A stretch of DNA of 64,000 nucleotides from Podarcis vaucheri. Its lineage: Eukaryota. Shown one piece after another: positions 30,701 through 36,700 of the stretch (positions are counted from its first letter, which is position 1; every line of letters starts with the position of its first letter). The stretch lies in the NCBI GenBank assembly GCA_965113315.1, contig OZ220369.1; one strand, given 5' to 3'. Made by a program: the position numbers.

Positions 30701-33700
30701 TAACATATAACACTTAAGAACAATTTAAAACAACCTCAGCCTTCCCAAATACCGTATTTTTCGCTCTATAACACGCACCCGACCATAACACGCACGTAGT
30801 TTTTAGAGGAGGAAAATCCGTAGGCATGCCACCCGTAGGCATTTCCTCCATAACACGCACAGACATTTCCTCTTACTTTCTAGGAGGAAAAAAGTGAGTG
30901 TTATGGTGCAAAAAATACGGTAATTCAGTTTTTTCTGCCAGATGTTCTTGCTGTCAGCTGAGACTTAAGAATAAAATTGCCAGGCTGTTAATTTTGGAAA
31001 TAATACGTCCCCTCTTGCCCCCCCATGCTATGCCCCTGTTGGGAAGACCGTTCCATAGAGAGGGAGCCACCACTAACAAGGCCCTTTTGTTAAAACTCCA
31101 GCTGTCATCAGCCTCAGCCAGCATGCCCAATAGACAAGGATGATAGGAGATTTAGTCCAAGACCTGGGGGACACCAAATTGGGATTATACACAACCTCCA
31201 TCAGCTGTATTTCACCTCTTCCTGCTTTGTATGGGTCATTTCAAAATGGCAACAAGTGTCACTGGCTTCTATGAGTGGGATCCTCTCACCTCTCTGGGTC
31301 CAGAAGTGGAATTGGGTGGGGTGGGGGACACCCAATGAGGACTGGCCCATTTAATTATTAGGTGTAGTGGTTAGCGTGTTGGACTAGGACCTGGGAGACG
31401 AGGTTCGAGTCCCTACTCAGCAATGAAGTTCACCAGGTGACCCTGGGACAATCACTGCCTGTCAGCCTAACCTACTGCACAGGGTTGTTGAGTTCCTTGA
31501 GCTCCTTATAGGAAAGACAGGACATAAGCAAGCAAGCAAATAATAAGAGAGCTCAATGAATGCCACCACCTTGAGCTGGCACCCAATTCATGCTCTACGT
31601 TCTCAACAGCCCTGCAAGGTAGGCCAGCATTATCATCCCCATGTAGCTGACGAGAGATCAATGTCTTGCACAGGAGTGCCTTGCAGGTGTCATTGGGCTC
31701 CAGCTCTCATCAGCCCCAGAGTTGACTAACCCTGGTTCTTACCTCAAGGCTTCCCTAATCAGTTTGGAGCTGGGCCGAGTTTTGAACCCAGGACTTAAGT
31801 TCTTAGCTGCTGCTGCTACCTCACCAAGGAAGACTGCTGCTTCATTTGCCCCACACGCAGATGTGGAAGAGAAAACATCTCAGCACGTGCTTCTGCTCTG
31901 CCCGTAATTACGCATCAGCGCACTCTATTTGTGCTGATAAATTGCCATATGACTACAGTAATGCACCATAAATCAGTGTTTCCCAACCTTTTTTGGGCAA
32001 AGGCACACTTGTTTCATGAAAAAAATCTCGAGGCACACCACCATGCCAGATGGGGAAAGGTCACTTTTTACTTATGTAAAAAGAAATAAAAAAATAGTAA
32101 CAGCATAGAAGGTAATGGTTAGGCTAGCATCCCTCTTCCAAATATGCTAGGTTTTTATTTGCAGGGACTGTTCTACATGGGAAAGCATTCAGCACTGTCA
32201 TTCTCCCATCTGCCATCTGAATTGGTACTATTCTGGGTCAACTTACTCTGCTGCATGTGTAGATGAAAATGGCACCAAGTGTGGGGGAGGGGGCAGAACA
32301 GGTTTCAGATACAGGATATTAAGCATACATGTACTTCAGATTGAACTGGTTGCTTGCTTTGCAAGTTTTCATTTCCCAAATGACTGCCTTGGCAAGCGCA
32401 ATACCTACCAGGCTCAACGCCGTTCTCGCGCTACCGCTTCCCGCGCTCTCAAGGACCCGGGAGGAGGAAGGCGTGAAGGCAATCCCAAAGGTGCGAAAAC
32501 CTTGCGCATGCGCAGGCCTTCCGCCTGCGACAGCCCAGTAGGCCGGCCGAAGCGAGCGGCGATGGGATGTGGGAGGGAGCTCGCTCGCCGCCCCGCGTGT
32601 GCCTATGTGGGGCACGTTACAGCCCCGTGACGTCAGCGCCACGCAGGCAGCCAGGCAGGCAGACGGCGAGAGCCCCGCGCTGGGCGGCCTCTCCTCGCCG
32701 CTGCCGCCCGCCTCTCGCCGCCCGACTCGCCCGCCTCCCTCCCACGGCACACCAGGCAACGTCTCGCGGCACACTAGTGTGCCGCGGAACACTGGTTGGG
32801 AAACACTGCCATAAATTAATCCCAGGACAGGGAGTGAGAGAGAGTGACCAGACAAGCTTTACAAGCTCATCCCAGAGACCTCTGCCAAAAGAACAAGAAG
32901 GGACCAGGCTGGGAATGGGTGGTATCTCTCCGCCCGTCTCTCACCTAGGCTCAGAGTCAGACCAGTTGCAGGCGACAGCAGCCTCGCTGGATAGATCATT
33001 GGCTTCGTACCAATCAGCTCATTCTCCATAATGGAGAAACCCATGTTCAGGTTTGAAAACAATGTCTATCTCACTGTAGTCTCCATCTTCTTACAGCTTC
33101 AGCTCACTCTAGCAGCAACCTCAGGTGATAAAGCAACAATAGGGCTGCTGCTAAAATGGACCCCCCTGAGAAACAAGAGGGAACGATCCACACACACAAA
33201 CAGCTCAATGAGCACTGGGTGTTCTCAGTACCCAGAGAGTGCTAGCTGTCAGCTGGAAAAGGAAAACAATCAGCAGGATGGAACGGTATCTGGGAAATGG
33301 GCATGGCCAGCCGGCTGGCTGGCTCCCTGGAGTATTATTGTCAGGAGGTGAAAATATACTGCAGCAATTCATCATGCCTTGGGGCACATCCACATCACAT
33401 ATTTATAGCAGCACCATGGCATTTTAACCAGTCGTGGCTTTCCCCAAAGAATTCTAGGAGCTGTAGTTTTGTTAAGGGTGCTGAGAGTTGCTGGGAGAAA
33501 TCTCATTTCCCTCCGAGAGCTACAATTCTCAGAGAGGTTTAACTAGGGTTGCTATATTTCAATAAGTAAGAACCAGGACACCCCAAAAATTGTGTCCGGG
33601 TGGGAATTCTAGCTCTGTGAGATGAATAAGGGTTTCCCCACAACTCTCAGTAAATACCCTTGACTGTTAAAGTAGTGTAAGAGTGTGGCCAGTTTTCTCT

Positions 33701-36700
33701 TCCCTTTGTCCTTCATTTGGTTTTGGAAAAGCTTTGTCCCAACATTTTGCTGAAAGCTTTTTCCTACTTAGCTGGGTGCTTTGTTCCTAATTCCCCCTCT
33801 GCAATAGTCTGGCTTGTGCCGAGCCAAAAGTCAGGAGGATAGGTGTTCTTTGGATTTTGGATTGACTCTCTCTGTATGTGATCATCCCATAACCCGGTAG
33901 CGGCCATTCAAAAGCAGCTGGGCAAGTTCTAGCTTAGCATTGGAAAAGAGCTACTAATTTAATAATGGATGCTTGGTTGGAATGAGTCCTCATGGAAAAC
34001 TGTCAAAGCAATTTGAAGTTTTCTTTTCATTTTTTTTAACCCACAAAGGTCAAGGATGTTTTTGAGAAAACATGGCCTGTGTTTATTCAATACACTAGAA
34101 AGGGCAATGCAACCATGAAACCACCAGCAGCTCATGGTAGCCTCTCAAACCACCTATTCAGATGAGAAAAACAATCTTCTGCAACCATTTAACACCCCAA
34201 CATGTAAACCCATTCCCAGCCTGGTCCCTTCTTGTTCTTTTGGCAGAGGTCTCTGGGATGAGCTTGTAAAGCTTGTCTGGTCACTCTCTCTCACTCCCTG
34301 TCCTGGGATTAATTTATGGTGCATTACTGTAGTCATATGGCAATTTATCAGCACAAATAGAGCTACTGACTCTATATGCATCTAATCTGAACGCATGGAG
34401 GGAGGGGGGGCGGGCCTTTGGGAAGCAATCTTACATGCATTTGTTCACTTGTACCTTTGCAACGATTATGAAAAACACAAAAACAAAAACTATTTTAGTA
34501 TTTATAAAAAAGAAAGACACCTCGGCAATCTGTGTTGTACAAAGCAGCGGACAATACATTGCAAGGGGATTTCTCATTTCTGCACATGAAATAGGCACCT
34601 GCGCACAAGAGACAGGGTGAACATAAGACCACCAGAAGAGCCTGCTGGATCAGGCCAGGGGCCCATCTAGTCCAGCCTCCTGTTCTCACAGTGGCTGACC
34701 GGATGCATCCTGTGGGTGTGAGTTCCATAGTTTAACAATGTACCCTCTTTAGAGATGTAAATGTTTAGGGAGGCAGCTGAACCTTGACGTATGGGACCAG
34801 CTCTCACGGAGAGCATTCTAACAAGGGATGGACAAAAGGCCCAAACGAGGACCATGATCTACCAGGGACAAGGGCCCCCAGAATAGGGACAGCGTGTAGG
34901 GTTATGAAAGGTGTGGAATAACAATAGGCAAACAGTCAGCTGTATTCTGCACACACATGCAGCGTATCTTAAAACCACAAGAGGGAGCCAAAGCATAAGA
35001 AAATAAATCTGTGGGAATATTAGTCTGTAAGGAGATTTGTAAGACCACATCTTTGTTTTGTGTGGGTTGGTGTGCCTCTCTGTGTGTGTGTTCCCTACGT
35101 GCACATCTTTCAGAAGGTTTGGGAGGAAAATTCAGCTGGTTTGAAGCCCCTCCCAACGCTGCAAGGGGGGCAGTGACGATCTGCATTTCCCCTTGCCTAA
35201 AGGAACACCACAGAGGGGCTTGGCTGATGTCACTAGGAAGGGAATTCCAAAGTGTAACACAGGCTTCCTCAAGCTCGGCCCTCCAGATGTTTTTTGGCCT
35301 CCAACTCCCATGATCCCTAGCTAGCAGGACCAGTGGTCAGGGATGATGGGAACTGTAGTCTCAAAACATCTGGAGGGCCGAGTTTGAGGAAGCCTGGTGT
35401 AATGCCTGAGTCATGAGGGCCAGCTAGAGAAGTCTGGAGGGCCACATTCAGCCTGTGTGCCCAAGTTTCTCCACGTCTGTCCAAGAGGGTGTTACCCTCC
35501 TCCAACTTTGGTTTCAAGAGAGATTCGACAAACAACAATTGTCCCGCCATCTCATCAAAATACAACTCAGCAGCAGGGCAAATTTATTTATTTGGAGAGG
35601 GGGTTTTGTGTGGTAAATCTGCTCTTTAGCCCCACCCCCAAAAGTTCCCATACAATAAATTAGAAACAAGATGATCCCTGCCCACAGGCTCACAGTCTAA
35701 AGGACACGACAGAAGATGAAAGAAGGAAGGAGGAGAGCATAAGAAAAGCGAAGCAAACGTGGGCACCAATTCTTAAAGTTGGTTTCTTAGAATGGCCAGC
35801 TGTTATGGAAAGAGTTTGAGGACAACAGGAGCCCAGTGGATATGATTTTAGTGGCTTTCTATGAGGTACTGTGGCCCTGCATCTAAAAAGTGATCTCTGT
35901 TACTAGAGAAAAAGCTGCCTCTATTCCTATCGCTGAAATGTACCTGCTTGGAAAGCTGCAGCAGTGGCGTAGCGTGAGGGGTGCAGGGGGGGCCGGCCGC
36001 ACCGGGCGCAACATCTGGGGGTTAGGGTTAGGGGGTGCAAATCCACGGGTTAGGGGGCGCAAATTACTTGCCTTGCCCCGGGTGCTGACAACCCACGCTA
36101 CGCCACTGAGCTGCAGTCTCCAGGAACTCTGCAGAACACAAGAAGAGTCTGCTGGATCGGACCAATGGCCCAACAGATCCAGCAGCCTGTTCTCACAGCG
36201 GCACCCAGATACCCCAATGGGAAGCCCAGAAGCAGGACCCAAATACAAGAGCCCTCTCCCCTCCTGTGGTTTGCAGAAACTAGTATTCAGAGGCATGGCT
36301 GCTTCTGACTATAGAGGCAGAGCAGAGCCATCATGGCTAGTAGCCATCGACAGCCTTTTCCTCCGCCAGGAATTTGTCCAATCCTCTTTTAAAGCCATCC
36401 AAGGTGGTGGCCATCCTTGCCTCTTGTGGGAGGTAGTTCCACGGTTTAACTGCGCACTGTGTGGAAAATTACTTTCTTTTCTCTGCCCTGAATCATCTGC
36501 CATCATTCAGTTTATAAGAACGTAAGACTGTGGATCAGACTGATGGCCCATTTACCTCAGCCTCCTCTTCTCACAATGGCAGACCAAATACCTGCCTCAA
36601 GCAGGACTAAGCACAAGAGCAACTCTCCCCTCCACGACACAGTATTAACAGACCCTCCAAGTGTCCCTGTTTCTCCCTAGATTTACAGAAGTCACCCTGG

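What the first reader, a model, noticed from the sequence alone, without database searches (positions are those of the whole stretch)
31923..34362. Perfect 155-bp inverted duplication around a 1.3-kb spacer: possible inversion scar or flippable segment
Seen: 34208-34362 is the exact reverse complement of 31923-31973 + 32817-32920 once the hAT insert and one TSD copy are removed. The arms resemble no interspersed repeat in this window and have no flanking TSD. Known: staggered-break inversions leave inverted duplications at their ends, and identical inverted arms can mediate recurrent inversion or be homogenised by gene conversion. Inference: the 32921-34207 spacer is a recent micro-inversion (possibly polymorphic) 2-4 kb upstream of the ZNF362 promoter region.
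Basis: partly seen in the sequence, partly recalled or inferred. Interest (0 to 1): 0.7.

Follow-up and report, generated by a model that had tools for sequence, protein, structure and literature searches.

The report
Young 155-bp inverted duplication upstream of ZNF362
A unique 155-base stretch of lizard intergenic DNA sits twice, in opposite orientations 1.3 kb apart and still letter-perfect, which is the ordinary scar of a recent local copying or breakage accident and not a mobile element or a demonstrated switch.

Summary
34208-34362 is the perfect reverse complement (155/155) of 31923-31973 + 32817-32920. The left copy is split by an 835-bp hAT-type insert (31974-32808) with a 15-bp perfect TIR and an 8-bp TSD. 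Shuffled windows give inverted matches of at most 22 nt.

The arms end abruptly, have no flanking TSD of 2-12 bp, and have no other copy in the 64-kb window. The spacer has no transposase, RT or RNA-family signal. A long-TIR transposon and an old, homogenised palindrome are therefore both unlikely.

The order of events is duplication first, then the hAT insertion. Both are young: pairwise divergence is below 1.9% at 95%.

Whether the 1,287-bp spacer was flipped cannot be decided from this window. No orthologous locus, genome copy-number search or reads were available. A one-step opposite-strand local duplication needs fewer breaks.

The gene context holds: ZNF362 runs on the minus strand, and a first exon lies 2.7 kb from the left arm.

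This is a known kind of event. Interest is low.

The parts
31923..31973 (+). Left arm, outer 51 nt (its last 8 nt are TSD copy 1, 31966-31973)
   Evidence: pair I2, 100% complementary to 34312-34362
31974..32808 (.). 835-bp non-autonomous hAT-type insert that splits the left arm. It has 15-nt perfect TIRs, an 8-bp TSD, six GGCACAC/GTGTGCC motifs (five within about 65 nt of an end, one internal at 32597) and a CpG-rich core
   Evidence: pair I7; TSD, ends; GC 0.65, CpG o/e 0.82 at 32501-33000; 51 CpG, motif positions
32809..32920 (+). Left arm, inner 112 nt (its first 8 nt are TSD copy 2, 32809-32816)
   Evidence: pair I1, 100% complementary to 34208-34319
32921..34207 (.). 1,287-bp spacer: non-coding, unique in the window apart from old repeat debris; orientation relative to the ancestor unknown
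   Evidence: the 13 ORFs of 50 aa or more that overlap the spacer: 12 scanned, none reaches a Pfam gathering score; 32617-32940(-) not scanned; no Rfam match with E < 0.1; only weak matches elsewhere
33474..33664 (.). Old self-complementary (MITE-like) element inside the spacer
   Evidence: nhmmer matches the spacer to its own minus strand over 33474-33664, E 4.9e-07; pair I9
34208..34362 (-). Right arm, 155 nt, uninterrupted, with a single copy of the 8-mer and no excision footprint
29079..29234 (-). Context: first exon of a lacertid ZNF362 isoform model (ATG at 29234, GT after 29079)
   Evidence: tblastn (residues 1-52 of P0004, 96% identity)

Best explanation
This is a real, one-off, evolutionarily young local rearrangement of ordinary intergenic DNA. 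A unique 155-bp segment was copied once, in reverse orientation, 1,287 bp from its source.

The most likely route is a single repair or replication accident. A nascent 3' end switched to the opposite strand nearby, copied about 155 nt, and switched back. That gives an opposite-strand, non-tandem local duplication (X-B-C-B'-Y) with the spacer left in its ancestral orientation.

Later an 835-bp non-autonomous hAT-type element inserted into the left copy and made its own 8-bp TSD.

The arms are not the ends of a transposon, and nothing suggests a function.

Shown: the structure, its uniqueness in the window, the sharp edges, the absence of a TSD, and the order of events.

Inferred: the mechanism, and that the spacer was not flipped.
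For: - Identity: the arms are perfect at 155/155, far beyond chance (15-22 nt in 20 shuffles).
- Edges: abrupt at all four arm ends, as expected for a discrete recent copy and not a decayed palindrome.
- No TSD of 2-12 bp.
- No further arm copy in 64 kb by blastn, megablast or nhmmer. Other repeat families do recur in the same window; for example, the 34620-34709 family has 6 or more other copies.
- The right arm carries one clean copy of the 8-mer, so the duplication preceded the insertion.
- Base rate: a human long-read survey counted 21 opposite-strand non-tandem duplications, plus 6 with a deletion, against 1 inversion with a flanking duplication among 166 supported local rearrangements (PMC5829575, Table 2, passages read).
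- Parsimony (inference): this route needs one break or stall and about 155 nt of misdirected synthesis. The inversion route needs two breaks, one of them staggered by 155 nt, or about 1.44 kb of synthesis on the wrong template.
Against: Nothing in the window shows the ancestral orientation of the spacer, so the preference over the inversion model rests on parsimony and on a human base rate that may not transfer to a lizard germ line.

In Drosophila, inverted duplications of unique sequence are typical inversion scars. They accompany 17 of 29 inversions, range from 46 bp to about 1.9 kb, and are one-sided in 12 of 18 (PMC1885836). At 155 bp and one-sided, this case fits that picture equally well.

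Genome-wide copy number of the arm and read support could not be checked.
Confidence: 0.48

Rival explanations
1. One reading: a micro-inversion of the 1,287-bp spacer made by two breaks, one of them staggered by 155 nt and filled in. An equivalent route is two template switches that copy the spacer and arm backwards. Either leaves the arm duplicated in inverted orientation at both ends (X-B-C'-B'-Y, the dupINV/INVdup class).
For: The product is exactly what the staggered-break model predicts: unique, non-repetitive sequence duplicated in inverted orientation at the two ends of a segment, with no TE at the junctions. The size lies within the reported 46 bp-1.9 kb range, and one-sided duplication is common (PMC1885836). 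CNV-flanked inversions, including dupINV and INVdup, are recognised human SV subclasses (PMC5338099).
Against: No evidence on spacer orientation could be obtained. The model needs more breaks or much longer misdirected synthesis than a simple inverted copy (inference). In the human long-read survey only 1 of 166 local rearrangements combined an inversion with a duplication, against 27 opposite-strand local duplications (PMC5829575). The Drosophila cases are large chromosomal inversions, not 1.3-kb ones.
Confidence: 0.3
2. The 155-bp arms are the long terminal inverted repeats of a roughly 1.6-kb non-autonomous DNA transposon, or the inverted terminal repeats of a DIRS-like element, inserted at this site.
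For: Perfect inverted termini around a non-coding core resemble a young long-TIR element. DIRS-like elements make no TSD (recalled, not from a call). If a palindromic TA target duplication were hidden inside the arm ends (CTC-TA-TTTG...), the missing TSD would be explained.
Against: No TSD of 2-12 bp. The hidden-TA reading needs 3 further bases to match by chance (1/64) and gives termini unlike those I recall for Tc1/mariner. There is no second copy of arm or spacer in 64 kb. None of the 12 scanned ORFs overlapping the spacer or right arm gives a transposase, RT or recombinase signal. No stretch of the spacer repeats the arm ends, as a DIRS internal complementary region would. A translated arm ORF has no relative among 5.8 billion proteins, which is weak evidence.
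Confidence: 0.08
3. Assembly artefact: one arm, or the junctions beside it, does not exist in the animal.
For: Perfect identity of two nearby copies is what a mis-join would also give. Reads were not available.
Against: One arm carries a biologically well-formed insertion (TIRs plus an 8-bp TSD) and the other a clean empty site. The copies are separated by 1.3 kb of unique sequence, not folded back on each other. No simple mixture of two haplotypes differing by an inversion creates the junction at 32920/32921 (inference). There are no N runs in the window.
Confidence: 0.06
4. An old inverted repeat kept identical by gene conversion, or a maintained structure that flips by recombination or gives a hairpin RNA and so acts on ZNF362 regulation.
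For: Identical inverted arms can in principle recombine. The structure lies 2.7-5.1 kb upstream of a ZNF362 first exon.
Against: An old homogenised repeat should have decayed margins; here identity falls from 100% to random at all four ends. The arms are short, and the left one is now split into 51 + 112 nt, below the roughly 200 bp I recall as needed for efficient mammalian recombination (recalled, not from a call). No RNA family matched. Transcription could not be tested.
Confidence: 0.03

Closest known systems
Localized opposite-strand non-tandem duplication (Frith & Khan 2018, PMC5829575; called interspersed or dispersed duplication in SV catalogues)
   Same: A short unique segment appears a second time close to its source in the opposite orientation, without TSD, poly-A or TE ends. 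Template switching (FoSTeS/MMBIR) is the mechanism the paper discusses for complex local rearrangements in general.
   Different: That class is defined against an ancestral sequence, which I lack. Those cases are human polymorphisms; here the event is seen in one lizard assembly. The sizes and distances of the published cases are in supplementary figures I could not open.
Inversions with inverted duplications from staggered breaks (Ranz et al. 2007, PMC1885836); dupINV/INVdup complex SVs (Collins et al. 2017, PMC5338099)
   Same: Inverted duplicates of non-repetitive sequence bound a segment. The 155-bp size is inside the reported 46 bp-1.9 kb range. One-sided duplication is reported for 12 of 18 inversions.
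   Different: Those inversions are cytologically visible chromosomal inversions or large SVs, and their inverted state is proven by outgroups. Here the segment is 1.3 kb and its inversion is unproven.
Long-TIR DNA transposons and DIRS-like elements
   Same: Perfect inverted termini around a non-coding core.
   Different: No TSD, no other copies in the window, no transposase, RT or recombinase remnants, and no internal complementary region.
Short-range template-switch mutations and microinversions between pre-existing inverted repeats (PMC5453318 seen in the search listing only; PMC8755829 abstract read)
   Same: A strand switch during synthesis creates or perfects inverted repeats.
   Different: Those events span tens of bases (17-33 nt microinversions). 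Here the copy is 155 nt and lies 1.3 kb from its source.

Membership tests
Staggered-break inversion with inverted duplication (dupINV/INVdup) | The same ancestrally single-copy sequence is present in inverted orientation at both ends of the segment | tested here: met
   155/155 identity. Single-copy status is shown only within the 64-kb window.
Staggered-break inversion with inverted duplication (dupINV/INVdup) | The segment between the copies is inverted relative to the ancestral or outgroup order | not testable with these tools
No landmark spans a junction.
Staggered-break inversion with inverted duplication (dupINV/INVdup) | Duplication size within the range seen for such events | tested here: met
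   155 bp against 46 bp-1.9 kb, median 321 bp (PMC1885836).
Local opposite-strand non-tandem duplication | A second copy near the source on the opposite strand, with no TSD, poly-A or TE termini | tested here: met
   no A-run at either arm end in the sequence.
Local opposite-strand non-tandem duplication | The intervening sequence is collinear with the ancestor | not testable with these tools
   Needs an orthologous locus.
Class II transposon with long TIRs | Target-site duplication flanking the TIRs | tested here: not met
   0 of 11 lengths (2-12 bp) match.
Class II transposon with long TIRs | Multiple dispersed copies | tested here: inconclusive
   None in the 64-kb window. The genome-wide count is not testable here.
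Class II transposon with long TIRs | Internal sequence derived from a transposase gene, or other copies sharing the core | tested here: not met
   Of the 13 ORFs of 50 aa or more that overlap the spacer, 12 were scanned and none reaches a Pfam gathering score; 32617-32940(-) was not scanned.
DIRS-like retroelement | RT and tyrosine-recombinase coding remnants, plus an internal region complementary to the terminal repeat ends | tested here: not met
   No Pfam hits. No arm-to-spacer repeats.
hAT-type non-autonomous element (the 835-bp insert only) | 8-bp TSD and short TIRs | tested here: met
   CCATAAAT on both sides and 15/15 TIR. That TIRs beginning CAGTG are typical of hAT is recalled, not from a call.
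hAT-type non-autonomous element (the 835-bp insert only) | Other family members | tested here: inconclusive
   No other full TIR match in the window: 4 matches at 3 or fewer mismatches against 2.84 expected, and two of the four are the element's own ends. nhmmer finds no other copy. The TIR string is in 0 papers. The genome was not searchable.
Palindrome maintained by gene conversion | Arms old relative to the flanks, with graded or decayed margins | tested here: not met
   Flank alignments are no better than shuffles at 40, 100 and 300 nt.

The most novel reading that the evidence does not exclude
The identical arms make the 1.3-kb segment a still-segregating, recurrently flipping piece of DNA 2.7-5.1 kb upstream of a ZNF362 first exon. 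Alternatively, read-through transcription gives a 155-bp perfect hairpin RNA, so that orientation or small RNAs modulate ZNF362 in this lizard lineage.
Probability: 0.03. Interest if true: 0.5.

Novelty: new member of a known kind. Interest (0 to 1): 0.2.

Why it matters
On its own it matters little. It is one neutral-looking structural scar in intergenic DNA. It has three modest uses:

- It is a cleanly dated sequence of two young events, a local inverted duplication followed by a hAT-type insertion. The insertion shows that this transposon family was active recently in this lineage.
- If orthologous lacertid loci are compared, it would be a tidy vertebrate test of whether small inverted duplications mark micro-inversions (the Drosophila staggered-break picture) or plain template-switch copies.
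- It is a candidate structural marker near ZNF362 for population work.

Tried and rejected
- **Landmarks for spacer orientation.** I looked for a repeat copy broken at one junction and continued at another. Sensitive blastn and nhmmer found no repeat within about 250 bp of any junction, so the test has no power.
- **Degenerate extension of the arms (older palindrome).** None found.
- **TSDs.** None found. A TA hidden inside the arm ends was considered and judged unlikely.
- **Junction oddities.** A 9-mer spanning the 34362/34363 junction recurs at 33947-33955 (family D1). CTCTAT lies 7 nt beyond the right arm. By my own estimate both are at chance level for post-hoc observations, so I set them aside.
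- **Coding or RNA content.** ORFs overlapping the spacer and right arm give no Pfam family at gathering score. The only matches are two sub-threshold ones, E 0.035 and 0.044, on a 52-aa ORF. The two Rfam matches are below gathering, E 0.16 and 0.98. All were rejected as chance.
- **Tandem repeats, 30-37 kb.** None.
- **PDB search with a zinc-finger exon.** It gave only generic C2H2 names, so I used one protein search to name the gene.
- **Protein search with an ORF across the right arm, as a crude proxy for copies elsewhere.** No candidates; this is uninformative if negative.
- **Literature search for the insert's TIR string.** 0 papers.
- **Not possible here.** Orthologous loci, genome-wide copy number and raw reads could not be reached. 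Supplements of PMC1885836 (Table S5, duplication sizes) and PMC5829575 (figures with sizes and distances of opposite-strand duplications) could not be seen and may bear on the size comparison.
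Full report
**Observation**

The repeat finder on 31000-35500 gives two perfect inverted pairs. One is 32809-32920 with 34208-34319 (112 nt, 1,287 nt apart). The other is 31923-31973 with 34312-34362 (51 nt). In a script, 31923-31973 + 32817-32920 (155 nt) equals the reverse complement of 34208-34362.

The piece that splits the left arm is 31974-32808 (835 bp). It has perfect 15-nt terminal inverted repeats (pair I7). It is flanked by the 8-bp direct repeat CCATAAAT at 31966-31973 and 32809-32816. 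The right arm carries that 8-mer once, with no footprint.

In 20 dinucleotide shuffles of the 64-kb window the longest exact inverted match was 15-22 nt. Chance is therefore excluded.

**Anatomy**

- **Sharp edges.** Outer flanks (left of 31923 against the reverse complement of the sequence right of 34362) and inner flanks (right of 32920 against left of 34208) were aligned locally over 40, 100 and 300 nt. They score no better than shuffles: 87 to 300 of 300 shuffles reach the observed score in the six tests.
- **No TSD.** No direct repeat of 2-12 bp brackets the whole unit (0 of 11 lengths).
- **No other copies.** Arm, spacer and insert have no other copy in the window by blastn at word size 9, blastn at word size 7 up to E = 5, megablast at 93% identity or more, or nhmmer. 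Other interspersed families do recur in the same 64 kb. Examples are the family at 34620-34709, with at least six other copies, and the hairpin family at 35260-35405. The arm is therefore not a very high-copy repeat, although one window cannot bound a modest copy number.
- **Spacer content.** It is non-coding. Of the 13 ORFs of 50 aa or more that overlap it, 12 were scanned and none reaches a Pfam gathering score; the ORF 32617-32940(-) was not scanned. The only matches are two at E 0.035 and 0.044 on a 52-aa ORF. There is no Rfam match at gathering score in the window. Only two sub-threshold matches fall in 31500-34800. The spacer contains an old self-complementary element at 33474-33664, so it looks like ordinary intergenic DNA.
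- **No tandem repeats** in 30-37 kb.
- **Arm composition.** The arm has no CpG and 46% GC.

**Order and age of events**

The right arm is an intact empty site and the left arm holds the insert with its own TSD. So the 155-bp duplication came first and the hAT-type insertion second.

Zero differences in 155 aligned sites puts pairwise divergence below 1.9% at 95%, and below 0.45% at even odds. With a neutral rate of the order of 1e-9 per site per year (recalled, not from a call), that means less than roughly 10 million years. The event is young, but this is no evidence that it is still polymorphic.

**Gene context**

C2H2 zinc-finger exons lie on the minus strand at 1.7-8.6 kb. A PDB search gave only generic zinc-finger names.

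One exon ORF, 6174-6689(-), was searched on its own. It finds ZNF362 of many vertebrates. The best named hits are squamates at 94-97% identity, including a lacertid at 97%. Primates are about 82%. I therefore take the window for squamate, not human.

tblastn of two named lizard reference proteins against the window places exons on the minus strand at these coordinates:

- 29234-29079
- 9347-9279
- 8483-8223
- 6578-6249
- 4467-4240
- 3589-3509
- 2549-2387
- 1813-1760

The first of these starts with ATG at 29234 and is followed by GT.

I searched exon by exon and left out the step of joining exons into a spliced model.

The transcription start itself was not determined. A strong CpG island at 48.2-49.5 kb is unassigned. 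If it were an alternative ZNF362 start, the structure would be intronic.

**What it is**

*Less likely readings*

- **Long-TIR transposon.** It fails the TSD test, has no other copies in the window, and has no coding remnants.
- **DIRS-like element.** This kind makes no TSD (recalled), but here there are no RT or recombinase remnants and no internal region complementary to the terminal repeats.
- **Old palindrome kept identical by conversion.** Such a repeat should have frayed margins. Here identity drops from 100% to random at all four ends.
- **Assembly artefact.** This is unlikely. One arm carries a well-formed insertion and the other a clean empty site. The copies are 1.3 kb apart. No mixture of two simple haplotypes makes the 32920/32921 junction. 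Reads were not available, so it is not excluded.

*The two readings that remain*

Two histories give the same present-day sequence:

- **(a) A local inverted copy.** B' is inserted 1.29 kb from B, and the spacer is untouched.
- **(b) An inversion of the spacer.** One breakpoint is staggered by 155 nt and filled in, or the equivalent double template switch occurs.

In Drosophila, 17 of 29 inversions carry inverted duplications of non-repetitive sequence. These range from 46 bp to about 1.9 kb with a median of 321 bp, and in 12 of 18 only one breakpoint is duplicated (PMC1885836, passages read). dupINV and INVdup are recognised human SV subclasses (PMC5338099, passages read).

Reading (a) is also a documented kind and needs less: one break or stall and about 155 nt of synthesis on the wrong strand. 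In a long-read survey of one human cell line it was the second commonest local pattern. There were 21 opposite-strand non-tandem duplications plus 6 with a deletion among 166 supported rearrangements. Only one case combined an inversion with a duplication (PMC5829575, Table 2 and text passages).

I therefore rank (a) first at about 0.48 and (b) second at about 0.30. This ranking rests on parsimony and a human base rate, not on any feature of this sequence.

**Could it flip now?**

The arms could in principle recombine. But the left arm is split into 51 and 112 nt, and the longest uninterrupted homology is 112 bp. That is short for efficient recombination in vertebrate cells (recalled, not from a call). 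Nothing here indicates a switch. Published microinversions between inverted repeats are 17-33 nt events on a different scale (PMC8755829, abstract read).

**What stayed unchecked**

- The orthologous locus in other lacertids.
- Genome-wide copy number of the arm and of the insert family.
- Read support and population polymorphism.

A protein search with an ORF across the right arm found nothing, which is uninformative. Supplements of the cited papers were closed.

**Verdict**

This is a real, young, local inverted duplication in lizard intergenic DNA, followed by a hAT-type insertion. It is a new instance of a known kind of structural scar. Interest is low unless outgroup or population data show inversion polymorphism.

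Noticed in passing
window 31974-32808: The 835-bp hAT-type insert has a CpG-island-like core (32501-33000: GC 0.65, CpG o/e 0.82; 51 CpG in all). The core contains TGACGTCA (32628), GCGCATGCGC (32504) and a 22-nt perfect palindrome at 32765-32786. GGCACAC/GTGTGCC motifs cluster near both ends. It looks like a non-autonomous element carrying promoter-like DNA. No second copy is in the window.
   Followed up: partly
window 1760-9347 and 29079-29234, minus strand: ZNF362 exons, 94-100% identical at protein level to lizard reference models. The first exon of one lacertid isoform model encodes an unusual 52-residue N-terminus.
   Followed up: partly
window 48200-49500: The only strong CpG island of the window outside the insert (48501-49000: GC 0.78, CpG o/e 0.83). 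It is not assigned to any gene. The long ORFs across it have no Pfam match.
   Followed up: no
window 4675-4784, 12021-12134, 18144-18256: Three copies of an interspersed repeat of about 110 bp, 95% identical to each other. Together with the arm pair, they are the only matches over 50 bp at 93% identity or more in the window. They suggest another recently active family inside the ZNF362 introns.
   Followed up: no
window 35260-35396: A hairpin element with 34-nt arms 97% complementary and 69 nt apart. It belongs to a family with diverged copies at 58823-58962, 59753-59835, 21143-21219, 24109-24207 and 31096-31170.
   Followed up: no
window 34620-34709: A short interspersed repeat 260 bp right of the right arm. 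It has at least six other copies in the window (near 61507, 19158, 25403, 36133, 36525 and 44373), 77-92% identical.
   Followed up: no
window 33474-33664: An old self-complementary (MITE-like) element inside the spacer (nhmmer self-match on the opposite strand, E 4.9e-07). A neighbouring stretch, 33376-33445, weakly matches 21443-21513.
   Followed up: no
window 7677-7817 and about 9680-9730: A trinucleotide microsatellite (read as runs of N, I or L in three frames) and a CA/TG dinucleotide run in the ZNF362 introns (matches between 7708-7769 and 18876-18919).
   Followed up: no
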